Shown: positions 4,057-14,475 of the stretch, piece after piece
Position numbering within the stretch: the first letter of the stretch is position 1
Layout of the letters: each line of letters starts with the position of its first letter
DNA from: a virus
Taxonomy: Duplodnaviria > Heunggongvirae > Uroviricota > Caudoviricetes
IMG/VR virus record: IMGVR_UViG_2706795442_000001
DNA: 19,739 nt
Direction: 5' to 3' (one strand)
Notes under the pieces: model-generated
The model's database searches: none
The model's input: the letters and a program-made list of their open reading frames with translations, nothing else
Told to the model about the DNA's origin: nothing
Made by a program: the position numbers and the translations under genes

Positions 4057-4742
4057 GAAAAACTAGAAATTTTTCTTTTTTTATTTTTAAATTTTACTTT
4101 CTTAAATTTTTTATAACTCCAGTATCTCATTGAATATAAATCTAAAAGTAACTTTGTATAATCTAAATTTAATTCATTCATAATTTTACAAAAACCAATG
4201 TCTTTTATAATATAAGTTTCGTTTTCTTTTTGAATAATATGATTTGAATCATTTTTTAAATCTTCGCATATTTCAAAAATATATTTTTCGTTAGTATCTA
4301 AAATATCAGCAATTACTTTATGGCTATAATATATTTGTCCATAAAGAACAGAATAAGGAATATTATTCAACTCTGTATTATCGTGTTTGATTCCTTTATC
4401 TTTTGGAACATAAGCCATATCTTTGTTTTTATTATTTTTATTTCTATATTTTCCTAATATTAAATTAGATTTTCTACGTTTCCTATTTCTTCCTTTAAGA
4501 TTTTTTAATAACAATTCATATCCTGTTTGGGATAAATAATATTTATTGTTTTTTAATATTACTATATTTTTTTCTCCTTTTTTTATAGATTTTACAATAG
4601 GAACTATTTTATCTTTTCTTAAATTCAATTGTTCTAATATATCCTCTAACTTAATACAGTATAATATTTTATCTCCTACTTTAAATTCATAAAAATTAAC
4701 ATCTACTTTTACACTATTATTATTAAAATTCTTTTTATACAT
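4041..4742 (-). CDS. Basic putative DNA-binding protein with two similar ~55-aa domains
   Basis: AAGGAG SD; YYLSQTGYELLLKNL and YIIKDIGFCKIMNEL resemble Rha/ORF6N-type signatures. Confidence 0.75.
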   Translation of the reverse strand: MYKKNFNNNSVKVDVNFYEFKVGDKILYCIKLEDILEQLNLRKDKIVPIVKSIKKGEKNIVILKNNKYYLSQTGYELLLKNLKGRNRKRRKSNLILGKYRNKNNKNKDMAYVPKDKGIKHDNTELNNIPYSVLYGQIYYSHKVIADILDTNEKYIFEICEDLKNDSNHIIQKENETYIIKDIGFCKIMNELNLDYTKLLLDLYSMRYWSYKKFKKVKFKNKKRKISSFSNSHG

Positions 4743-5666: not shown

Positions 5667-5792
5667 ATGACAAGCAATCCAAAATGCTCTAATTGTAACG
5701 GGCAAACTAAACATATAGACACAGACGAATACGAATGTGTTTATTGCGGTTGTGTTCTTGATGAATATGGAGATGTTATTCATGAGATATAA
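5667..5792 (+). CDS. 41-aa TFIIB-type zinc-ribbon protein
   Basis: Not in the ORF track. AGGAAGGTG SD; MTSNPKCSNCNGQTKHIDTDEYECVYCGCVLDEYGDVIHEI has CxxC-x13-CxxCG; overlaps the HNH start. Confidence 0.8.
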   Translation: MTSNPKCSNCNGQTKHIDTDEYECVYCGCVLDEYGDVIHEI

Positions 5793-6183
5793 AGTTTGTT
5801 CACATTGTGGCAGAAGATACGATGCAAACAAACAATGTATTTGTCAAGTAAATAATTCAAATGAATATAGTAAACAATATTATGAACAAAACAAAGAACG
5901 TAAAAAACAATTAAACAGTAAGCGTTGGAAAACTTTAAGAGAGAGAATTATTAAAAGAGACGGTGGAATGTGTAACAGATGTTGGGTAAGTCTTAATGTT
6001 ATAGAAACAAAAGATTTACAAGTACACCATATCAAACCACGTTCTGAATATCCAGAGTTAATGTATGACCCAAACAACTTAATAACAGTTTGTAAAACAT
6101 GTAACCTTGCATTAGGAACAAAAGGTAGTTTAGATTGGGAAGTACAAAAGTTTAATGAAGATATTGACGAACTAAGATTATAA
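5782..6183 (+). CDS. HNH endonuclease, HK97 gp74-like packaging-associated
   Basis: Start reassigned to ATG 5782 (GGAG SD 5769-5772). SKRWKTLRERIIKRD, CxxC, VHHIKP, NLITVCKTCN; adjacent to terS. Confidence 0.9.
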   Translation: MRYKVCSHCGRRYDANKQCICQVNNSNEYSKQYYEQNKERKKQLNSKRWKTLRERIIKRDGGMCNRCWVSLNVIETKDLQVHHIKPRSEYPELMYDPNNLITVCKTCNLALGTKGSLDWEVQKFNEDIDELRL

Positions 6184-6201: not shown

Positions 6202-6711
6202 ATGTCAAGAGGTAGACCAAAAGCGCCAGCCCAACTTGTAGACCCAAGCAAAAACCATAGATATAATAAATCGCAAGTTGAACAAATGAAAAAATCAGAA
6301 GATGAATTAAAAGGCAAGTCTGAAAAAGTATCTGACATTCCGGAGTACCTATCAGACCTAGCTAAAGAATACTATTCTTTTATAGTTAATGAAATGGAAG
6401 TAAGTGGTGTTTTAAGTAATCTTGATATTCCAGTGGTCGTTCAGATTTCAGAAACGTTAGCGATTATAAGAGAGTGTGATGCTGATATTCAATTAGACGG
6501 ATTGTGGTATTATGAACCAGACAGAAATGGTAGAGATGTTAAAAAGAAAAACCCTTCTGTCGATATTAGAGATAAAGCACTTAATCAATTTAAACAACTG
6601 GCTGTTCAATTAGGTATGACACCGTCATCAAGAAGTAGTTTAGCAGCAGCTAATATAGAAAAGCAAGAAAAAGAAGAAGACCCATTATTAAAAGTTCTTA
6701 ATCAAAAATAA
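6202..6711 (+). CDS. terS: Terminase small subunit (P27 family)
   Basis: MSRGRPKAP start, P.YL...AK..Y, KKNPSVDI, LGMTPSSR C-terminal motif. Confidence 0.9.
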   Translation: MSRGRPKAPAQLVDPSKNHRYNKSQVEQMKKSEDELKGKSEKVSDIPEYLSDLAKEYYSFIVNEMEVSGVLSNLDIPVVVQISETLAIIRECDADIQLDGLWYYEPDRNGRDVKKKNPSVDIRDKALNQFKQLAVQLGMTPSSRSSLAAANIEKQEKEEDPLLKVLNQK

Positions 6712-6776
6712 TATAAGACCGTCATTTGATTGTAAAAGACTACGGACACTAAGTCAATTAGGTTTAGAGGTGTCCA

Positions 6777-6786
6777 TATACATATT
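6777..6786 (+). promoter_or_regulatory. TATACATA late-region motif, copy 2
   Basis: 1 nt after the GGACAC/GTGTCC stem (6744-6775), upstream of the DUF2828 gene. Confidence 0.5.
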
Positions 6787-6810: not shown

Positions 6811-8319
6811 ATGACCTTTTTAGATAATTTAATTAATGAAGATAATAAAACAGTTACAACAAACGGAGAAAATGGTTATAAATCTACTTTAAGCGGTATT
6901 TTAGATTTATCAACTGAAATTGGAAATAGTAGATTTTTAAATATAGATGATTTAACAGATTTAATAATTGAAGCAAGAGATGAAGATTTTTTATTATATT
7001 CTAAATTAATTGCATATGCAAGAGATGTCCGTCAAGGTGGAGGAGATAAACGTTTAGGTCGTTTAGGTTTTGTTGATATATTTGAAAACATTGATATAAA
7101 TAAAATTCCATTTTTGATTACTTTAATTTCAGAGTACGGGAGTTATAAAGATGTAGTTCTTTTATTGTTAGCGCCAGTTACAAACAAGGATAAAAAAAGA
7201 GCGTTAGCACAACATTTAAATAATATCTTAGATTCAGATGATACCAATGAACAAGTTAGTTTATTAGCTAAATATATGCCAACAGAAACTACTAAAGATG
7301 AAGACATGAAATTTGCATATAGAGAATTTATGAAGTATGTAGATATTACACCTAAAGAATATCGTAAAAGAAACACACGAATCAGAAAGAAACTAGACAT
7401 TGTAGAAACTAAGTTAACTGAAAAACGTTATGAAGATATTGACTATTCTCGTGTTCCGTCACAAGCTAATTTGAAATATAGAGACGCTTTTATTAGAAAT
7501 GACAAAGAGCGTTACACAGATTATTTAGAAAAAGTAGATTCTGGAGAAGAAAAAATAAATAGCGGAACTCTCGCTCCTTATCAAATTGTAGACAAAGTGC
7601 GTTATAGTAATAGTTCTTCATTAAATACTCTATGGAATAATATTCCTGCGCCAACTAACAACGGATTAGAGATTCTACCTGTAGTTGACGTTTCTGGTTC
7701 TATGTATGGACTACCAATGGACGTAGCAGTTTCTTTAGGAATATTTTTATCAGAACATAACAAAGGTCAATTTAAAGACCATTTTATCACATTCTCTAAT
7801 GAACCAGAATTGAAAAAAATTAAAGGTAATACTATTCGTGATAAAGTATCTAGTGTTGAATCTTCTAATTGGGGTATGAATACAGATTTAGAAAAAACAT
7901 TTGATTTAATATTAAAAACAGCAATTAACAATGATTTAACACAAGAAGAGTTACCAAAATCATTACTTATTATTTCAGATATGCAATTTGACGAAGCTAC
8001 AACTGGTGGTTTTTTCGCATCAGATGTACCAAAACCAGATGACACATTCTTTGAAAAAATGAAACATAAGTTTAAACAACATGGATATAAATTACCGTTT
8101 ATAGTATTTTGGAATGTAGGATATGGTAACACTAAACCTGTAGTTAAAACAACTAAAAATACAATTTTAGTATCTGGTTTTAGTCAAAACATATTTAACA
8201 GTATTTGTAATCTAGACCTAGATGATTTAGAAAAATATACACCACTTAAAGCATTATTAGAAATTTTAGAATCAGATAGATATAAAGCGATAGAGGGCTT
8301 ATATCAAACAACGGATTAA
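6811..8319 (+). CDS. DUF2828-family protein (Ro60/TROVE-like helical domain + vWA)
   Basis: YARDVRQGGGDKRLGR, LLAKYMPTE, YSRVPSQA..KYRDAF, MIDAS VVDVSGSM, GMNTDLEKTF, IISDMQFD, IVFWNV. Confidence 0.85.
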   Translation: MTFLDNLINEDNKTVTTNGENGYKSTLSGILDLSTEIGNSRFLNIDDLTDLIIEARDEDFLLYSKLIAYARDVRQGGGDKRLGRLGFVDIFENIDINKIPFLITLISEYGSYKDVVLLLLAPVTNKDKKRALAQHLNNILDSDDTNEQVSLLAKYMPTETTKDEDMKFAYREFMKYVDITPKEYRKRNTRIRKKLDIVETKLTEKRYEDIDYSRVPSQANLKYRDAFIRNDKERYTDYLEKVDSGEEKINSGTLAPYQIVDKVRYSNSSSLNTLWNNIPAPTNNGLEILPVVDVSGSMYGLPMDVAVSLGIFLSEHNKGQFKDHFITFSNEPELKKIKGNTIRDKVSSVESSNWGMNTDLEKTFDLILKTAINNDLTQEELPKSLLIISDMQFDEATTGGFFASDVPKPDDTFFEKMKHKFKQHGYKLPFIVFWNVGYGNTKPVVKTTKNTILVSGFSQNIFNSICNLDLDDLEKYTPLKALLEILESDRYKAIEGLYQTTD

Positions 8320-8327
8320 TTTCCGTT

Positions 8328-8337
8328 GATACATATT
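8328..8337 (+). promoter_or_regulatory. GATACATA late-region motif, copy 3
   Basis: At the base of the CAACGGA/TCCGTTG stem (8309-8328), immediately before the stem-loop array. Confidence 0.5.
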
Positions 8338-8338
8338 A

Positions 8339-8546
8339 AAGACACTTACAGCAATCCTGTTAATTCATATTTTACGCTAATTAAAAATGATTATGTGTCT
8401 TGTTTATTTTTATAAAAGTCTCTTACAGCAAACTTTATTAAACATTTTAAAAGATATAATATTATGTTGAGACTTGATTATATTTAAAAAGGACGTACAG
8501 CAAATTATTATTAAAAAACATGGGAACGTTTTTCAAATTGTCCTTT
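8339..8546 (+). repeat. Array of three 59-63 nt stem-loops, each opening with N-TACAGCAA (candidate ncRNAs)
   Basis: 7-bp stems AAGACAC/GTGTCTT (8339-8401), AAGTCTC/GAGACTT (8416-8475) and AAAGGAC/GTCCTTT (8488-8546); TACAGCAA at 8347, 8424 and 8496. Confidence 0.85.
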
Positions 8547-8556
8547 GATACATATT
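8547..8556 (+). promoter_or_regulatory. GATACATA late-region motif, copy 4
   Basis: Directly after array unit 3, before the AAGGAGG SD of the phosphoesterase. Confidence 0.5.
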
Positions 8557-8573: not shown

Positions 8574-9752
8574 ATGAATGAATATTTAAAACGCAACGAG
8601 GAAAGTGTAACATCATATTGGATAAGATTATATAAAAACAGACAATCTTATGGACTAACATTCAAAGAATGTGGTCAGCTTATGAATGAAGTAACAGGAG
8701 AAGATTGGAACGAAGCAAAATGGCGTAGAGAAATGGAAGGTTATCTTAAAGTATCTAGCTATTTACAAGAAGAAAACCCTACAGGAATTAATACAGAACA
8801 ATTAGAAGAAATTCAATCAGAGAAATTGGAACTTGAAAAAGAAAAAATAAAAATGAGAGACCAAAAACGTGAAATGCGTAACACTCTTAGACAAATGGCT
8901 CGTTTAGAACATTTAGTAGATTATGTTGAATCTGCAACAGAAACATTAGAACCATTTGAGTTACCTGTAGAAAGCAAAGATAAAACTAATGATAGTGAAG
9001 CTATGGTAGTTATTTCCGATTGGCATTTAGGAATGAATATAGATAGCCAATTTAATAGATTTAACGAAGATGTAGCACGATACAGAATCACTAAGTTAAA
9101 GCAGAAAACATATGAAAAAGTAATTAAAGACGACATACAGAGATTGCATATAGCTAACTTGGGTGATTTAATTCATGGTGCTATACATGTGTCAACTAGA
9201 ATACAAAGTGAAGAAGATGTTATTCAGCAAGTTATAAGAGCTTCTGAATATCTGAAAGACTTTATTGGAGATTTCTTGAAATTAGGCATTGATGTTAAGT
9301 ATTATAATGTTATAGGAAATCATGGTCGTGTATCTCCTAACAAACAAGATGTGGCAGGAATAGAAGAAAACTTTGAAAAACTTATTCTAACTATATTAGA
9401 TACGGCATTTAGTTCTCAATTAAATTATACGTCTTTTGATTCTAAAGACGGTCTTATTGAAACTACAATAAAAGGACGAAAGGGCGTTCTAGTACACGGA
9501 GATTATGATAAAGGCGCAAGTATTGTTGCTAAATTACCACAACTATTAGGATATGTTCCAGATTTTGTTATAGGTGGACATTTCCATAGAGAATCAATTA
9601 TGGATTATGGTAAGACGACATGTATTACTAATGGTTCTTTATGTGGTAGCGATGATTATGCAATACAAATGAGATTAGGTGGAAAACCTAGTCAAAAATA
9701 TTTAACTTTCACTGATGAAGGTATTGAAGAAAATAATACGATTTATTTATAA
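8574..9752 (+). CDS. Calcineurin-like metallophosphoesterase with N-terminal helical/coiled-coil extension
   Basis: Start reassigned to ATG 8574 (AAGGAGG 8559-8565). ISDWHLG, NLGDLIHG, GNHGR, VHGD and GGHFH are the five metallophosphoesterase motifs. Confidence 0.85.
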   Translation: MNEYLKRNEESVTSYWIRLYKNRQSYGLTFKECGQLMNEVTGEDWNEAKWRREMEGYLKVSSYLQEENPTGINTEQLEEIQSEKLELEKEKIKMRDQKREMRNTLRQMARLEHLVDYVESATETLEPFELPVESKDKTNDSEAMVVISDWHLGMNIDSQFNRFNEDVARYRITKLKQKTYEKVIKDDIQRLHIANLGDLIHGAIHVSTRIQSEEDVIQQVIRASEYLKDFIGDFLKLGIDVKYYNVIGNHGRVSPNKQDVAGIEENFEKLILTILDTAFSSQLNYTSFDSKDGLIETTIKGRKGVLVHGDYDKGASIVAKLPQLLGYVPDFVIGGHFHRESIMDYGKTTCITNGSLCGSDDYAIQMRLGGKPSQKYLTFTDEGIEENNTIYL

Positions 9753-9980: not shown

Positions 9981-10054
9981 CAGAATGTAGTTCAATTTGG
10001 TAGAATACCACATTTGGGATGTGGTGGTTGTTGGTTCAAATCCAGCCATTCTGA
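9981..10054 (+). tRNA. tRNA-Pro(UGG), CCA not encoded
   Basis: Acceptor CAGAATG/CATTCTG + A73, D stem GTTC/GAAT, anticodon stem CCACA/TGTGG with loop TT-TGG-GA (anticodon 10015-10017), T arm GTTGG-TTCAAAT-CCAGC. Confidence 0.95.
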
Positions 10055-10342: not shown

Positions 10343-10936
10343 ATGATTGATAATTATATAATTGAACATCCATCTTATCAATATGCTTTATCAGTAGTTA
10401 ATAATGAAATTATTTCTGGAAAGTATATCAAAAAAGAATGTCAACGTTTTTTAGATGAATTAGAAAACGAAGATAGCCCATACTTTTTAGAATTAAAAAC
10501 ATTAAAACTAATAGATGATTTAACAAAGTTACTCAACATGGCTGACGGAATGAAAATTGGTAAAAGTGTTAATGAATCATTAGCACCTTTCCAATGGTAT
10601 TTCTTAGTCAACGCTTTATGTTGGAAATATAAAAACAACCCAGAAAAAAGACGTTATGAAAAATCAACATTACTAATTGCTCGTAAATCTGGAAAGAGTT
10701 TCTTAGTAGCTTTGATTTTCATATTATTGTTGCTACTAGAACCTAAAAATTCAGAGTTCTATTCAGTAGCACCAGACAGAGAACTTTCTTCAATTGTAAA
10801 AAAAGAAATAGGTAAAATGATTGAAGCAAGTCCAGCAATTTCTGATAAGTTTAAAGTTATCAAATCAGAAGTAACTTGTCTTTTAAACAATAGTAAAATG
10901 ATTGCATTGGCTACATCTGATAACCGGATGGACGGT
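10343..10936 (+). CDS. terL: Terminase large subunit, exon 1 (198 codons)
   Basis: Walker A IARKSGKS; ends ...SDNRMDG at the U of the P1 U-G wobble. Confidence 0.9.
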
Positions 10937-10984
10937 AACTCAATTTACTGCCGTCGTTAAATCGGGCAAAATCGGTGGAAAACT

Positions 10985-11013
10985 TTGACAATGCCTATAT
11001 TGTATGATATTAT
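10985..11013 (+). promoter_or_regulatory. Intron-internal sigma-A promoter for the homing endonuclease
   Basis: TTGACA(10985-10990)-17 nt-TATTAT(11008-11013) with TGn; AGGAGG SD at 11020-11025. Confidence 0.7.
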
Positions 11014-11033
11014 ATTATTAGGAGGTTAATAAT

Positions 11034-11705
11034 ATGTTTGGATATATTTATAAAACGACTAATAATATAAATGGAAAAATATATATAGGTAAAAAGCACA
11101 GCAGCTCTTTTATTAAGGATTATTATGGAAGTGGAAAACTTATAAATAGAGCTATTGATAAGTATGGTATAGAAAATTTTAGTGTAGAGATAATAGAAGA
11201 ATGCGAAACACTAGAAGAACTTAATTTAAAAGAAAAATATTATATAAAATATTTAGAATCTAACTATAAATTAGGCAAAGGTTATAATATTGCTTCTGGT
11301 GGAGATGGCGGAAACATTATCAGCTTATTACCAGAAATTGATTATAATTCCTTTATTCTTGATTGTAAAAGAAGAGCAAAAGGAAAAAATAATCCTAATT
11401 ATGGGAATGGTAATAAAATATCTGGGGACAATAATCCATCTAAAAGACCCGAAGTTAGGGAAAAATTAAGCAAAGCTACTAGTGGAAAAAACAATCCAAT
11501 GTATGGCAAAAAAGGAAAATTAAGTCATAGATATGGAACAAAACATTCTGAAGAAACAAGAAACAAAATAAAAGAATCTCTAAAAAATAAAGTATATAAA
11601 AAAGTATGTAAGAATTGCAACATAGAATTTAATACTAAATATGCCAGAACTACATATTGTTGTGCTGATTGTAAAAGAGAATACCGAGATAACCATAATA
11701 AATAA
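11034..11705 (+). CDS. GIY-YIG homing endonuclease with NUMOD3-type repeats and C-terminal Cys zinc finger
   Basis: GYIY...IYIG, GKNNPMYG and KHSEETRNKIKESLK motifs, CKNC...YCCADC. Confidence 0.9.
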   Translation: MFGYIYKTTNNINGKIYIGKKHSSSFIKDYYGSGKLINRAIDKYGIENFSVEIIEECETLEELNLKEKYYIKYLESNYKLGKGYNIASGGDGGNIISLLPEIDYNSFILDCKRRAKGKNNPNYGNGNKISGDNNPSKRPEVREKLSKATSGKNNPMYGKKGKLSHRYGTKHSEETRNKIKESLKNKVYKKVCKNCNIEFNTKYARTTYCCADCKREYRDNHNK

Positions 11706-11725
11706 AAATGTTATGGTATTGTAAC

Positions 11726-11752
11726 GCATAGGAATTGAACCTATGCTTTTTT
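11726..11752 (+). terminator. Terminator-like hairpin overlapping intron P7
   Basis: GCATAGG-7 nt-CCTATGC followed by TTTTTT, 20 nt after the endonuclease stop. Confidence 0.5.
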
Positions 11753-11870
11753 ATTAGCATAGAATATAATATTCCCACGAGGGTCCGACAGTAATATACT
11801 GAAAATGTATGCTGAACTATATGGCGACATATAGAAGTGATTGATAAAAAACTATCACGATAACAAAATG

Positions 11871-12986
11871 AGAAAAGCCAACGTGTTCGTTGCTGATGAA
11901 GTTGGGGCACTTAAAAATAGATACCCAATTGAAGCAATGGAATCATCTCAAATGAATATGATTAATAGAACAGGTATTCTTATTTCTACTGCTTATGATA
12001 GCACAGATAATCCAATGGTGCAAGAGGTAGAGTATGCAGAAAAAGTATTAGATGGTTTGATTGATGATGATAGTTATTTTGCTATGTTGTTCAAACCAGA
12101 TGACGTAAGAGATTGGATGTCAGATAAAACATTATACGAATCTAATCCTTTATGTTACACTGTACCTGCTAACTATGATTATTTAGTTAAGAAAAGAAAT
12201 AAAGCATTAGAGATGTCTGATGCTAAATCTAACTTTTTAACTAAACATTTAAACATATTTATTGACGGAGATATTGAAGAATCATTTGTTACTATAGACG
12301 ATTTAAGACAAGGTAAAATAGCAGAAGAAGATTTTGATTGGGACGGTAGAGAAGTTTATTTAGGTATCGACTTAGCAGAAACTGTCGATAATACTGCTGT
12401 TTCAATGGTTTATTATGATAATGATGAAGATAAATTTTATACAAAATGTTGGTCATTTATTCCACAAGAGAAAGCAACAGAAAAATCAAAAAGAGAACGT
12501 ATTAATTATTTCTTAATGCGTGATAAAGGTTGGGCTTTTTTATGTGGAGATAGAGTAATAAGTCAACGTTTTGTTGAAGATTACGTATTAGGAATAGAAA
12601 AGAAATATAATGTTATAGTAAAAGGTATCGGATATGATAGACGTAATGCAATATCATCTGTAAACAGATTTATAGATGAAGGAGATTACGAGTGTATAGA
12701 AGTAAGACAAAATAGTTCGTCACTTGGTCCAACATTTAAAATGATGAGAGATTATATTATAGATGGCAATTTCCTTTACCAAGAAAATGAACTTTTAGAA
12801 AATAACTATAAAAACGCACGAATAACATACGATACTACAATGAATATATATGTCAATAAAAAGAAAAGTGCTGGTAAAATTGACGGTGTTTATGCCACAG
12901 CAGATGCAATGTATCTATGGAAACAAGACATAGATGACGGATTATTGACAAGTAGTTTTGAAGATAGAGGATTATTTATTTTGTAA
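11871..12986 (+). CDS. terL: Terminase large subunit, exon 2 (371 aa; spliced product ~569 aa)
   Basis: Walker B FVADE, ISTA coupling motif, nuclease YLGIDLAETVD and KIDGVYA. Confidence 0.9.
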   Translation, partial: RKANVFVADEVGALKNRYPIEAMESSQMNMINRTGILISTAYDSTDNPMVQEVEYAEKVLDGLIDDDSYFAMLFKPDDVRDWMSDKTLYESNPLCYTVPANYDYLVKKRNKALEMSDAKSNFLTKHLNIFIDGDIEESFVTIDDLRQGKIAEEDFDWDGREVYLGIDLAETVDNTAVSMVYYDNDEDKFYTKCWSFIPQEKATEKSKRERINYFLMRDKGWAFLCGDRVISQRFVEDYVLGIEKKYNVIVKGIGYDRRNAISSVNRFIDEGDYECIEVRQNSSSLGPTFKMMRDYIIDGNFLYQENELLENNYKNARITYDTTMNIYVNKKKSAGKIDGVYATADAMYLWKQDIDDGLLTSSFEDRGLFIL

Positions 12987-12999
12987 AGGAGGTACGTAA

Positions 13000-14475
13000 A
13001 TGGGATTGATTGACGATTTAATGAAGCAATTTTCAAATAATCAAAATAATCAAAACAAACAACAATTAAATAATATGTATGGTAATGTAAATTCAGCTAT
13101 TGTTGGTACTTCCTCTGGTGGTTCCTCAAATTTTACAGAAGAAGAAGCACTTTCAATATCCTCTGTAGCAGCAGCAACTGATTTAATAACATCCACTATT
13201 GCTAGATTACCAATAAGGTTGTATAAAAAAGGCTCTAAAGGAGAATATGTATCATTAGACGATGATAAAAGAGTTTTTTTATTGAATAAAGAACCTAATA
13301 CAACATTAACTGCTATTACATTAAAGAAACGCATTATATTAGATTATCTTTTTCATGGAAACTCATATATATATCCAGAATGGAACAGAAATGAGTTAAT
13401 GGGATTGCATCATATACCAGCTAAAAACGTTTTTGTTGAAAAATACGTAGATGAAAACATACCTTTTGCAGTTAAAGGTCAATTTGAAGTTTTAGGAGCA
13501 GATGCTCAAAAAATAACTTTATTGCCCGATGAATTAATGATTGTGTTAAAAAATTCTGAGAATGGATTAGATTCGAAGGGTATATTAGACCTTAATTCAG
13601 AGTTATTACAACTTGCATTAAACCAACAACAATATAGTTCTTCTATATTGGAGAATGGTGCATTGCCTTTGGCTGTTTTAACTACTCCATCTAGGGTTAC
13701 AGATAAAGCAATGGCAAGAATTAAACAAAGTTGGGAGACTATCTATAAAGGTGGGAAAAATGCTGGTAAAACGGTTATTTTAGAAGATGGTATGGATTAC
13801 AAACCGGTATCTCTCAACCCTAATGAATTAGATTTAAGTACAAGTAAAGAAGCTGTATTATCAGATATTGCAAGAGTTTTTGGTATTCCAGAGTCAATGC
13901 TTAATGCAGATGCAAATAAATATAATTCTAATGAACAAAACAACTTGCATTTCTTACAGTATACATTAGACCCAATTATTACAGCTCTTGAAAGTGCATT
14001 AAATAAATCTTTACTATTAGAATCTGAAAAAGACAAAGGTTACAGTTTCCAAGTTGACAGAGATTCAATATTGGCAACTACAGAAGCAGAGAAATTTGCT
14101 ACTACTATTCAAGCAATGAAAGGCGGATTAATCTCTGTGAATGAAGCAAGAGCTAGACATAACCTTAAACAAATAACTGATGACTACATGATGTGGGGTC
14201 TAGGCAACATTTTCTACAATAAAGAAGACAGTAAAATGACTATTCCAAATATGGGTGCTATTATTGACCCTAATGACCCAGAAAGTGTAGCAAAAGCTAT
14301 GAATAAAGATTCTGAACAAGCTAGTAATGATTTAAAAGATAAACAAAAAGAACAAGAAAAAGAGAATACTGATAAAGATGACAACGAAGAAAAGACTGAT
14401 GATGAGATGAATGAAGATAAAGAAGACAAAGATAAAAAATCTAACAAGGATAAGGATATAAAAGAAGACAAATAA
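13000..14475 (+). CDS. Portal protein, HK97 family, with charged low-complexity C-tail
   Basis: FLLNKEPN, YLFHGNSY, GKTVILEDGMDY, IARVFGIP, NEAR motifs; follows terL. Confidence 0.92.
   Translation: MGLIDDLMKQFSNNQNNQNKQQLNNMYGNVNSAIVGTSSGGSSNFTEEEALSISSVAAATDLITSTIARLPIRLYKKGSKGEYVSLDDDKRVFLLNKEPNTTLTAITLKKRIILDYLFHGNSYIYPEWNRNELMGLHHIPAKNVFVEKYVDENIPFAVKGQFEVLGADAQKITLLPDELMIVLKNSENGLDSKGILDLNSELLQLALNQQQYSSSILENGALPLAVLTTPSRVTDKAMARIKQSWETIYKGGKNAGKTVILEDGMDYKPVSLNPNELDLSTSKEAVLSDIARVFGIPESMLNADANKYNSNEQNNLHFLQYTLDPIITALESALNKSLLLESEKDKGYSFQVDRDSILATTEAEKFATTIQAMKGGLISVNEARARHNLKQITDDYMMWGLGNIFYNKEDSKMTIPNMGAIIDPNDPESVAKAMNKDSEQASNDLKDKQKEQEKENTDKDDNEEKTDDEMNEDKEDKDKKSNKDKDIKEDK

What the first reader, a model, noticed from the sequence alone, without database searches (positions are those of the whole stretch)
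8339..8546. Three covarying TACAGCAA stem-loops directly behind the Ro60-like gene: candidate new small-RNA array
Seen: three units spaced 77 and 72 nt apart. Each has a 7-bp closing stem, one spacer base, an invariant TACAGCAA, and a variable AT-rich remainder (loops 49, 46 and 45 nt). The stems differ in sequence (AAGACAC/GTGTCTT, AAGTCTC/GAGACTT, AAAGGAC/GTCCTTT) yet pair perfectly, so pairing, loop size and an 8-mer are conserved while stem sequence is not. The array is bracketed by two GATACATA signals and begins 20 nt after the DUF2828 stop. Established: Ro60 orthologs are typically encoded next to their Y RNA partners. Inference: Y-RNA-analogous ligands, guides or decoys for the DUF2828 protein, with constant handles and variable loops, possibly cut into ~60-nt RNAs. 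They lack the Y RNA bulged-C GGUCCGA helix and the tRNA-like arms of YrlA, and I know no named family for them. I recall similar ACAGCAA hairpins near DUF2828 genes in other phages but cannot verify that here.
Basis: partly seen in the sequence, partly recalled or inferred. Interest (0 to 1): 0.9.

Follow-up and report, generated by a model that had tools for sequence, protein, structure and literature searches.

The report
Partner RNAs of phage Ro60-like protein
Three hairpin RNA genes of about 60 nt sit directly behind a staphylococcal phage gene for a ring-shaped Ro60-like protein; they belong to a widespread small-RNA family, absent from Rfam, that travels with this protein in very different phages and is probably its RNA partner, a new relative of the Ro60/Y-RNA particle.

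Summary
Three units lie at 8339-8402, 8416-8476 and 8488-8547 on the + strand. Each has a perfect 7-bp closing helix, a 2-nt spacer, ACAGCAA, an AU-rich loop, and a G after the 3' arm.

They are real members of a large family. A covariance model built only from 66 units beside distant DUF2828 genes (31-39% protein identity, no staphylococcal sequence) hits the window at exactly these three places (44, 41 and 36 bits; next best 14.5).

Linkage to DUF2828 is strong:
- Sextaecvirus genomes with the gene have three units, and those without it have none.
- Six of six cultured phages of other hosts carry units beside the gene, on its strand.

The protein models as a Ro60 ring (TM 0.53-0.59 to solved Ro60 structures).

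Most likely these are Y-RNA-like partner RNAs whose helix plus ACAGCAA is the protein-binding handle. Binding, processing and function are untested. A published Felixounavirus homologue counters a host defence.

No Rfam family reaches threshold. The best sub-threshold match is the Dictyostelium Class I RNA, which has the same design.

This scan has already found the same family on other DNA (171 notes). I found no paper that defines it. Verdict: new variant of a known kind.

The parts
6811..8319 (+). Gene for the DUF2828 + DUF7788 protein (502 aa): a Ro60-fold ring plus a vWA domain with an intact MIDAS motif. Proposed protein partner.
   Evidence: Pfam PF11443 (6e-28) and PF25043 (8e-50). PHROG 850 'RNA-binding protein'. 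AlphaFold2 model pLDDT 86, pTM 0.85. Foldseek finds Ro60 structures 9nfa, 1yvr, 2i91, 9kop and 9l5y at TM 0.53-0.59, probability 1.0, and Swiss-Prot Ro60 of mouse, human, Xenopus and Deinococcus. D293, S295, S297, T358 and D390 are invariant in 16 diverse homologues.
8339..8402 (+). Unit 1: helix AAGACAC/GTGTCTT, spacer UU, ACAGCAA, 40-nt AU-rich loop, 3' G.
   Evidence: Model R1: 44.0 bits, E 1e-8, model positions 1-63. Handle invariant and loop variable among orthologues.
8416..8476 (+). Unit 2: helix AAGUCUC/GAGACUU, spacer UU, ACAGCAA, 37-nt AU-rich loop, 3' G.
   Evidence: R1: 41.4 bits, E 5e-8. The loop carries a 7-8-nt indel and many substitutions in BE22 and SEP9, while the handle is unchanged.
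8488..8547 (+). Unit 3: helix AAAGGAC/GUCCUUU, spacer GU, ACAGCAA, loop with an inner 6-bp hairpin (AAAAAC/GUUUUU), 3' G (which is the first base of GATACATA).
   Evidence: R1: 36.3 bits, E 8e-7. Consensus fold of orthologues.
8309..8335 (+). Hairpin (CAACGGA/TCCGTTG) followed by GATACATA, just after the DUF2828 stop. One copy of the late-region punctuation signal, not part of the RNA family.
   Evidence: (I3).
8547..8554 (+). Second GATACATA, abutting the 3' arm of unit 3 and lying 5 nt before the ribosome-binding site of the next gene.
   Evidence: The same signal precedes the phosphoesterase gene in relatives that lack DUF2828 and the array.
8574..9752 (+). Metallophosphoesterase / 'exonuclease' gene (context only). 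It is present at this position in all Sextaecvirus examined, with or without the DUF2828 cassette, so it is not shown to be part of the system.
   Evidence: Pfam Metallophos_2 7.7e-6. PHROG 284 'exonuclease' 6e-75..
9981..10054 (+). tRNA-Pro(UGG) (context). The RNA family commonly sits in or beside phage tRNA arrays.

Best explanation
The three units are genes, or co-transcribed modules, for small structured RNAs of about 60 nt. They belong to a widespread phage RNA family defined by a 'handle': a 6-8-bp helix joining the two ends, two free bases, single-stranded ACAGCAA, and a G after the 3' arm. The handle closes a freely variable 'payload'.

I propose that the handle is the docking site for the Ro60-fold DUF2828 protein encoded 20 nt upstream. 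The pair would then form a Y-RNA-like ribonucleoprotein, as Ro60 does with Y RNAs and Thermus phage phiLo Ro60 does with Yrl1/Yrl2.

In this phage the cassette (gene plus array) was inserted into the late operon between terS and terL. It would be transcribed with that operon, and the units would be released by host RNases.

By analogy with a Felixounavirus homologue (Bas63 gp130), the particle probably serves host takeover or counter-defence.

Shown here: the anatomy, family membership, covariation, strand bias, linkage to the gene and the protein fold.
Inferred: transcription and processing here, direct binding, and the biological role.
For: 1. Family and structure. In 80 IMG/VR loci holding DUF2828 homologues of 31-39% identity, ACAGCAA is heavily over-represented on the gene's strand and clustered next to the gene. 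A perfect Watson-Crick helix of at least 6 bp ends exactly 2-3 nt before the word in 114-116 of 256 cases, against 8-45 at eight other control offsets. In 66 short units all 7 helix pairs covary: score 0.93 against 0.25 for shuffles (0/500) and 0.06-0.19 for slid partners.

2. Membership. Model R1, built without staphylococcal sequences, finds exactly the three units.

3. Linkage.
- Whole-genome scans give 3 hits each in BE02 and SEP9, all behind the gene. PMBT8, SA2 and SpP have none, and they also lack the gene.
- Six of six cultured phages of Listeria, Mycobacterium, Campylobacter, Enterococcus, E. coli and Mammaliicoccus have hits within a few hundred nt of the gene, on the same strand.
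- In reverse, of 120 loci fetched by a bare two-motif pattern only 7 hold real arrays. Three of these 7 hold DUF2828 on the locus and a fourth on the same contig, against 1 of the other 113.

4. Selection on the handle. Among staphylococcal orthologues 0 of 72 handle columns vary against 29 of 122 loop columns (Fisher p = 4e-7). Loop indels of 1, 7 and 8 nt exclude coding.

5. Protein. Ro60 fold over its whole length.

6. Kinship with Y RNAs. About 20 larger units carry a permuted tRNA-like domain that matches Rfam YrlA at 32-50 bits (E down to 8e-11), below that family's cut-off.

7. Literature.
- phiLo Ro60 binds two RNAs encoded beside it (PMC12135203).
- In Listeria phage CKA15 the homologue has three units with a TTGACA box just upstream. 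The authors report very abundant non-coding transcripts within 2 kb upstream of that gene and guessed Y RNAs (PMC12282133).
Against: - No RNA data cover the array here. The only RNA-library contigs found stop at 8605-8800, so transcription, ends and processing are unknown.
- No binding test is possible with these tools.
- Folding energies are not significant.
- The known Ro-binding words (GGUCCGA; GNCGAA/CGAA) are absent, so the mode of binding cannot be transferred from solved complexes.
- In the Bas63 preprint the protein alone, expressed from a plasmid or from T7, sufficed to counter the ppl defence (PMC11482910). At least that activity does not need the phage's own RNAs.
- The units lie on the mRNA of a late operon, so they might act in cis.
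- Unit 3's helix also fits the general 'hairpin + GATACATA' punctuation of this phage.
Confidence: 0.72

Rival explanations
1. Cis-acting mRNA elements. The units stay part of the late polycistronic mRNA (3' UTR of DUF2828, leader of the phosphoesterase gene) and are bound by the DUF2828 protein for autoregulation, or serve as processing or stability signals. They would not act as free small RNAs.
For: They are always on the gene's strand and mostly within a few hundred nt of it. Here no sigma-70-like promoter excess or terminator is seen around the array. Unit 3 abuts the GATACATA signal and the ribosome-binding site of the next gene.
Against: - In other phages units lie up to 2-3 kb from the gene inside tRNA arrays, or are built into tRNA-like and YrlA-like RNAs, which are stable RNA genes.
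- In CKA15 and A511 the three units follow a TTGACA box of their own.
- Arrays of 3-8 units with unrelated loops are hard to explain as one regulatory site.
Confidence: 0.14
2. Small RNAs that work without the DUF2828 protein, for example as decoys or sponges for host tRNA-directed nucleases, tRNA enzymes or RNases. They would be linked to the gene only because both serve the same conflict with the host.
For: Anticodon-arm-like hairpins occur in 43 of 116 family loops against 7.6 in shuffled loops. The commonest 7-nt loop is CUUUUAA, which is like tRNA-Lys. The family sits in tRNA arrays. Bas63 gp130 acts without phage RNAs (PMC11482910).
Against: A decoy needs its payload, not a constant handle. 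The invariant part is the handle, which resembles no tRNA feature. Presence and absence with the gene match exactly within one genus, and adjacency is tight across phyla; both point to physical partnership. The three window units have no anticodon-arm mimic.
Confidence: 0.09
3. DNA-level or purely structural elements: terminators, packaging or recombination sites, or miniature mobile inverted repeats.
For: They are inverted repeats in an intergenic tract of the packaging module. A 16-nt direct repeat (8322-8337 and 8541-8556) flanks the array. In the SEP9 group an HNH endonuclease gene has been inserted right after the array.
Against: - The motif shows strong strand bias, roughly 230 forward against 40 reverse in 80 loci.
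- The asymmetric single-stranded word sits at a fixed register to a covarying helix.
- There is no U tract, and no terminator-like call on the + strand at the units.
- Phage 6ec packages from a cos site at the genome ends (PMC4125762), about 2.7 kb away in SEP9 coordinates.
- Members are embedded in tRNA-like RNAs.
Confidence: 0.03

Closest known systems
Ro60 (Rsr) with Y RNAs, especially bacterial and phage YrlA/YrlB (Rfam RF02553; Chen et al. 2014, PMC4201824)
   Same: A ring-shaped TROVE+vWA-type protein is encoded next to small RNAs whose 5' and 3' ends form a helix carrying a conserved word on the 5' side, with a variable effector module. Larger relatives of the window's units carry the YrlA arrangement of T arm, closed acceptor stem and D arm.
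   Different: The protein belongs to Pfam DUF2828/DUF7788, with only 10-17% identity to solved Ro60s. The conserved word is ACAGCAA after the helix, not GNCGAA or GGUCCGA. The window units have no tRNA-like domain. No Rfam Y_RNA or YrlA hit in the window, and YrlA hits elsewhere stay below the cut-off of 69 bits.
Thermus phage phiLo Ro60 with Yrl1/Yrl2 (PMC12135203; PDB 9KOP, 9L5Y)
   Same: A phage-encoded Ro60-fold protein with small stem-bulge-stem RNAs encoded right beside its gene. Binding was shown by EMSA and cryo-EM. The window protein's model matches these structures (TM 0.53-0.57).
   Different: The phiLo RNAs were picked by a CGAA motif in a bulge, and there are two of them, upstream of the gene. 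Here there are three, downstream, with ACAGCAA. The PNPase recruitment shown for phiLo has not been tested for this family.
Class I RNAs of dictyostelid social amoebae (Rfam RF01414; Kjellin et al. 2021, PMC7919456)
   Same: Same design: 42-65 nt, a short helix joining the ends, an 11-nt word CCUUACAGCAA directly after the 5' arm (units 1 and 2 read CUUACAGCAA), an AU-rich variable remainder, and U/G after the 3' arm. RF01414 is the top Rfam match, full length, for units from three unrelated phages (20-25 bits).
   Different: All scores are below the gathering score of 41.5. Class I genes have their own DUSE promoter and a fully conserved 5' G with 3' CUGU. The only published binder is an RRM protein (Rnp1A/CIBP). 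I could not test whether dictyostelids encode a DUF2828-type protein. The resemblance may be convergent.
Bas63 (Escherichia phage JohannRWettstein, Felixounavirus) gp130 (PhageMaP preprint, PMC11482910)
   Same: A Ro60-like protein encoded directly upstream of the tRNA array of a Felixounavirus. Felixounavirus phages carry a DUF2828 homologue in that position, about 30% identical to the window protein and with a family unit beside it. Deleting the gene sensitised the phage to the ppl defence system.
   Different: I did not align gp130 itself; the identification is inferred from genus and gene context. The authors supposed that some annotated tRNAs are Y RNAs and did not define the RNA family. 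The protein alone protected T7, so the RNAs' role is open.
Listeria phage CKA15 gene CKA15_055 and its abundant non-coding transcripts (PMC12282133)
   Same: CKA15_055 is the A511 gp57-type DUF2828 homologue, and three family units lie directly upstream of it. The paper reports very highly transcribed non-coding regions within 2 kb upstream, suggests Y RNAs, and found the protein in purified virions.
   Different: The one region whose coordinates the paper gives (26,236-26,727) lies about 700 nt upstream of the units and has no hit to the model. Whether the units are one of the other two regions is not stated.

Membership tests
ACAGCAA-handle RNAs linked to DUF2828 (unnamed; defined in this scan) | A 6-8-bp helix joining the two ends of the unit, with free covariation | tested here: met
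   Three different perfect 7-bp helices. In the family, 7 of 7 pairs covary.
ACAGCAA-handle RNAs linked to DUF2828 (unnamed; defined in this scan) | Two unpaired bases, then ACAGCAA, directly 3' of the 5' arm; a G after the 3' arm | tested here: met
   UU, UU and GU followed by ACAGCAA; G at 8402, 8476 and 8547. The register test peaks at offsets 2-3. The G is at least 90% conserved.
ACAGCAA-handle RNAs linked to DUF2828 (unnamed; defined in this scan) | Significant score against a covariance model trained on other members | tested here: met
   44.0, 41.4 and 36.3 bits, E 1e-8 to 8e-7, full length; the next best hit scores 14.5 bits.
ACAGCAA-handle RNAs linked to DUF2828 (unnamed; defined in this scan) | Same strand as, and close to, a DUF2828/DUF7788 gene | tested here: met
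   The array starts 20 nt after the stop codon. Presence and absence match within the genus.
Y RNA / YrlA (Rfam RF00019, RF02553) | Encoded beside a Ro60 (TROVE + vWA) protein gene | tested here: met
   Met at the level of fold only. The Pfam family is DUF2828/DUF7788, not TROVE.
Y RNA / YrlA (Rfam RF00019, RF02553) | Ro-binding word GGUCCGA (animals) or GNCGAA(N)G / CGAA (bacteria, phiLo) in the terminal helix region | tested here: not met
   Absent from the three units. No Y_RNA or YrlA match at E up to 10.
Y RNA / YrlA (Rfam RF00019, RF02553) | tRNA-like domain (T arm, closed acceptor stem, D arm) in YrlA | tested here: not met
   Not present in the window units. Present in larger family members elsewhere.
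Y RNA / YrlA (Rfam RF00019, RF02553) | Physical binding to the Ro60 protein | not testable with these tools
   Needs EMSA, RIP or a structure.
Dictyostelium Class I RNA (Rfam RF01414) | 42-65 nt, terminal helix, CCUUACAGCAA next to the 5' arm | tested here: met
   Units are 59-63 nt. CUUACAGCAA is present in units 1 and 2 and GUACAGCAA in unit 3. Features as described in PMC7919456.
Dictyostelium Class I RNA (Rfam RF01414) | Score at or above Rfam's gathering score (41.5 bits) | tested here: not met
   22.4 bits for units 1 and 2; 20-25 bits for units of two other phages.
Dictyostelium Class I RNA (Rfam RF01414) | Invariant 5' G pairing with the C of a 3' CUGU; DUSE promoter about 60 nt upstream | tested here: not met
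   The units begin with AA and end in CUUG or UUUG, and no eukaryotic promoter context applies (features from PMC7919456).
Intrinsic terminator | GC-rich short-loop hairpin followed by a U tract | tested here: not met
   Loops are 45-49 nt with no U tract, and the scan makes no + strand call at the units.

The most novel reading that the evidence does not exclude
The handle (terminal helix plus ACAGCAA) is one ancient protein-binding module shared by these phage RNAs and the Class I RNAs of dictyostelid amoebae. Class I RNAs, whose function has been unknown since 2004 and which are thought unique to Dictyostelia, would then be eukaryotic members of the same family. Their missing partner would be a Ro60-fold DUF2828/DUF7788-type protein, a family that also occurs in eukaryotes.
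Probability: 0.12. Interest if true: 0.9.

Novelty: new variant of a known kind. Interest (0 to 1): 0.68.

Why it matters
Ro60/Y-RNA particles are known in animals, some bacteria and a few phages, but their phage biology is barely explored. Three points follow if the reading holds.

- DUF2828 homologues occur in at least 692 cultured phage records, including Felix O1-like, A511/P100-like, Campylobacter, Enterococcus and mycobacterial phages. Several of these are used for biocontrol or therapy. If the ACAGCAA-handle RNAs are the partners of this protein, these well-studied phages carry unannotated, probably abundant small RNAs, some now mis-annotated as tiny ORFs or odd tRNAs.
- The handle gives a simple, testable recognition code: helix plus ACAGCAA. 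The payloads (AU-rich loops, anticodon-arm mimics, permuted tRNAs) suggest a modular way of presenting RNA baits. One homologue is already tied to counter-defence.
- This staphylococcal phage offers a minimal, clean case: one gene and three short RNAs, with natural relatives that lack the whole cassette. That makes it a good experimental entry point.

The match to Dictyostelium Class I RNAs, if it reflects common descent or a shared partner, would give a first mechanistic lead for that RNA class.

Tried and rejected
- Folding energy. z-scores of single units (-0.5 to -1.8) and of the whole tract (-1.0) are not significant on either strand, so they are not used as support.
- Rfam. No family reaches threshold in the window or in 25 related loci; only tRNA does, plus sub-threshold YrlA and Class I.
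- Bare pattern TACAGCAA-N(50-80)-TACAGCAA over IMG/VR. It was useful only as a reverse-linkage control.
- G-U versus A-C mismatches in near-perfect helices. The count is 30 against 13, but the control register also gives 2:1, so it does not decide the strand.
- Guide hypothesis. The longest antisense matches of the three loops to the BE02 genome are 12-14 nt, no better than shuffled loops. The host genome was not tested.
- Expression. The run search found no true RNA library holding the array. RNA-library contigs cover only 8605-8800 and one carries adapter remnants, so nothing is learned about the array.
- Own assembly is not held. BE02 (99.8% identical here) was used as a stand-in.
- Does Dictyostelium encode a DUF2828 protein? 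Swiss-Prot fold hits show none, AFDB cluster organisms are hidden, and the atlas searches show only broad taxa. Avesson 2011 is not held. The question is left open.
- S-CoN_Ph17 (L005) shows broken genes and many indels through the array, probably from sequencing errors, and was not used.
- A guessed accession for Bas63 turned out to be Bas51. Only the genus was confirmed.
- Complex prediction was not used, because it does not take RNA.

Full report
**Where the window lies.** The window is from a lytic Staphylococcus epidermidis siphovirus of the genus Sextaecvirus. It is 99.8% identical over the tested 501 nt to vB_SepS_BE02. Earlier notes of this scan name the genome as phage 6ec.

On the + strand the gene order is as follows:

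| Feature | Coordinates |
|---|---|
| HNH endonuclease | 5737-6183 |
| Small terminase (terS) | 6202-6711 |
| DUF2828 + DUF7788 protein | 6811-8319 |
| Non-coding tract of the finding | between 8319 and 8574 |
| Metallophosphoesterase / 'exonuclease' | 8574-9752 |
| tRNA-Pro | 9981-10054 |
| Large terminase (terL), split by a GIY-YIG endonuclease insert | 10343-12986 |
| Portal | 13000-14475 |

**The observation.**
- Units are at 8339-8401, 8416-8475 and 8488-8546, spaced 77 and 72 nt.
- Three different, perfectly paired 7-bp helices close loops of 49, 46 and 45 nt.
- TACAGCAA lies one base after each 5' arm.
- GATACATA lies at 8328 and 8547.

TACAGCAA occurs four times in the window against 0.57 expected, and no shuffle of 200 reaches four. 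Folding energies are unremarkable. The case therefore rests on comparison.

**Close relatives.** In BE22, S-CoN_Ph1 and SEP9 (90-97% identical DNA) the three units are present. None of the 72 handle columns varies (arms, spacer, ACAGCAA, 3' G), whereas 29 of the 122 loop columns do (Fisher p = 4e-7). Loop indels of 1, 7 and 8 nt rule out the small ORFs annotated there in some records. A local pairing of ACAG with CUGU predicted in unit 1 is broken in SEP9, so the word is probably single-stranded.

**Presence and absence within the genus.** PMBT8, SA2, RQ1, SpP and PT1-4 have terS followed directly by the phosphoesterase gene. They have no DUF2828 gene and no TACAGCAA hairpins in between. Whole-genome scans confirm this. 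BE02 and SEP9 each have the gene and exactly three model hits, all behind it. PMBT8, SA2 and SpP have neither. Gene and array therefore behave as one inserted cassette.

**Distant relatives.**
- The protein has about 1956 homologues at E <= 1e-10 among 8000 scored candidates and is found in 692 cultured phage records.
- I fetched 80 IMG/VR loci around homologues of 31-39% identity. ACAGCAA is massively enriched there on the gene's strand and clustered just upstream or downstream of the gene.
- A perfect helix of at least 6 bp ends 2-3 nt before the word in 114-116 of 256 instances, against 8-45 at eight other control registers.
- The 116 units found have a median length of 66 nt.
- In an alignment of 66 short units all seven pairs covary: score 0.93 against 0.25 for shuffles and 0.06-0.19 for slid partners.
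- A covariance model from these 66 units (R1) finds the window's three units as its only significant hits (44.0, 41.4 and 36.3 bits).
- R1 also finds units next to the gene, on its strand, in Listeria A511 and CKA15, Mycobacterium phage Archie, Campylobacter CPX, Enterococcus phiSHEF13, E. coli CL1 and a Mammaliicoccus Twortvirinae phage. In Archie and the Mammaliicoccus phage there are three units directly behind the gene, as here.
- Reverse linkage holds too. Among 120 loci pulled out by a bare two-motif pattern, 7 hold true arrays, and at least 4 of those have DUF2828 on the locus or contig. Only 1 of the other 113 does.

**What the payloads look like.** The handle is constant and the payload is free.
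- Many loops hold an anticodon-arm-like hairpin: 43 of 116 against 7.6 in shuffled loops. CUUUUAA is the commonest loop.
- About 20 units of 90-125 nt hold a circularly permuted tRNA-like domain (T arm, closed acceptor stem, D arm). This domain matches Rfam YrlA significantly but below its cut-off, 50.3 bits at best.
- The handle is also found inside over-long tRNA genes, as an insertion of about 48 nt in the anticodon arm.
- The three window units belong to the minimal class. They have AU-rich loops, no anticodon mimic and no tRNA-like part.

**The protein.** An AlphaFold2 model (pLDDT 86, pTM 0.85) matches Ro60 structures over its whole length. These include Xenopus and human Ro60, the phiLo phage Ro60 crystal structure and its cryo-EM complex with RNA (TM 0.53-0.59, probability 1.0). 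It also matches Swiss-Prot Ro60s. The MIDAS residues of the vWA domain are invariant in 16 diverse homologues.

**How it most likely works.** By analogy with Ro60 and Y RNAs (Chen et al. 2014, PMC4201824) and with phiLo Ro60 and Yrl1/Yrl2 (PMC12135203), the helix plus ACAGCAA is the docking site for the ring protein. The loop is then the effector or gating part.

Two published observations on homologues bear on the role.
- In the Felixounavirus Bas63 a Ro60-like gene directly upstream of the tRNA array counters the ppl defence system, and it does so even when moved alone into T7 (PMC11482910). Felixounavirus phages carry the DUF2828 homologue in that position.
- In Listeria phage CKA15 the homologue was detected in purified virions, and very abundant non-coding transcripts arise within 2 kb upstream. 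The authors suggested Y RNAs (PMC12282133). I find the three family units there behind a TTGACA box. The one region with published coordinates is a different, neighbouring non-coding RNA.

In the present phage the cassette sits in the packaging operon. That placement would fit late expression and perhaps loading into particles, but this is inference. Transcription, processing, binding and role are all untested here.

**Rivals.** The rivals are a cis-acting mRNA role, RNAs that act without the protein, and DNA-level elements. The last is nearly excluded by strand bias, register-locked covariation and members built into tRNA-like RNAs. The 'guide' idea finds no support in the phage genome.

**The GATACATA brackets.** [T/G]ATACATA occurs nine times on the + strand of the window. 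In the eight late-region copies (5615 onwards) it sits right after a hairpin and shortly before a ribosome-binding site; the copy at 4736 shows neither. The copy before the phosphoesterase gene exists in relatives without the cassette. It is a separate punctuation signal of the late region. Unit 3's helix merely takes the place of the usual hairpin.

**Comparison with known families.** The system works like Ro60/Y RNA, but it fails the sequence-defined membership tests for Y_RNA and YrlA: it has a different word and no tRNA domain in these units. The protein is also in a different Pfam family.

The top Rfam match for short units from three unrelated phages is the Dictyostelium Class I RNA (20-25 bits against a gathering score of 41.5). 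Its published design is the same: 42-65 nt, a terminal helix, CCUUACAGCAA after the 5' arm and a variable AU-rich rest (PMC7919456). Whether this is convergence or kinship I could not test. I give the kinship reading 0.12.

**Novelty.** I found no paper that defines this RNA family. DUF2828 appears in five unrelated papers, and ACAGCAA with Ro60 gives only chance hits. Two papers merely guess at Y RNAs near homologues. This scan, however, has met the same family many times on other DNA (171 notes), with the same reading. My tests here were run independently of those notes. Relative to the public record this is a new variant of a known kind. Relative to the scan it is one more, unusually clean and minimal, member.

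Noticed in passing
window 4736, 5615, 6777, 8328, 8547, 10121, 10318, 16840, 19503 (+ strand); 13246 (- strand): [T/G]ATACATA occurs 10 times against 3.5 expected, 9 of them on the + strand. In the eight late-region copies (5615 onwards) it directly follows a 5-8-bp hairpin and lies 5-25 nt before a ribosome-binding site; the copy at 4736 shows neither. It looks like a late-promoter or RNA-processing punctuation signal of this phage.
   Followed up: partly
window 6752-6784; L007:2925-2968: The hairpin before the TATACATA upstream of DUF2828 (GGACAC/GTGTCC) is homologous to one in phage SA2 (GTGCG/CGCAC) that precedes the phosphoesterase gene there. The pairing is kept through changed bases, which marks the old terS-phosphoesterase junction into which the cassette was inserted.
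   Followed up: partly
window 10343-12986: The large terminase gene is in two pieces (ATPase 10343-10960, nuclease 11841-12986) separated by a GIY-YIG/NUMOD3 endonuclease gene (11034-11705). This is presumably an intron with a homing endonuclease.
   Followed up: no
L003:2846-3512 and L004:2949-3515: In SEP9 and most S-CoN phages an HNH endonuclease gene with about 120 nt of leader is inserted right after the array's closing GATACATATTAAAT, between the array and the phosphoesterase gene. The window and BE22 lack it.
   Followed up: no
L141:2397-2510, L170:2139-2254, L134:2453-2575 and others: Phage tRNA genes of 114-139 nt carry an insertion of about 48 nt with the helix-ACAGCAA handle in the anticodon arm. 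ARAGORN does not call them, whereas Rfam's tRNA model does, at 46-53 bits.
   Followed up: partly
L222:2018-2509 (cka15 26,236-26,727): The most highly transcribed region of Listeria phage CKA15 (PMC12282133) lies between tRNA-Pro and the DUF2828 units. It follows a TTGACA...TATAGT promoter at about 1953-1985 and has no hit to the handle model, so it is a different, unexplained abundant RNA next to the system.
   Followed up: partly
window 8605-8800: Contigs from three unrelated metatranscriptome or metagenome runs (wastewater, digester, marine) match this piece of the phosphoesterase gene at 100% identity and stop there. One carries Nextera adapter remnants at both ends. This may be cross-contamination rather than biology.
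   Followed up: no
L005 (S-CoN_Ph17, OR354840): This record has DUF2828 and the phosphoesterase gene split into fragments, many single-base indels through the array, and 268 features in 88 kb. It looks like an error-rich assembly rather than real decay.
   Followed up: no
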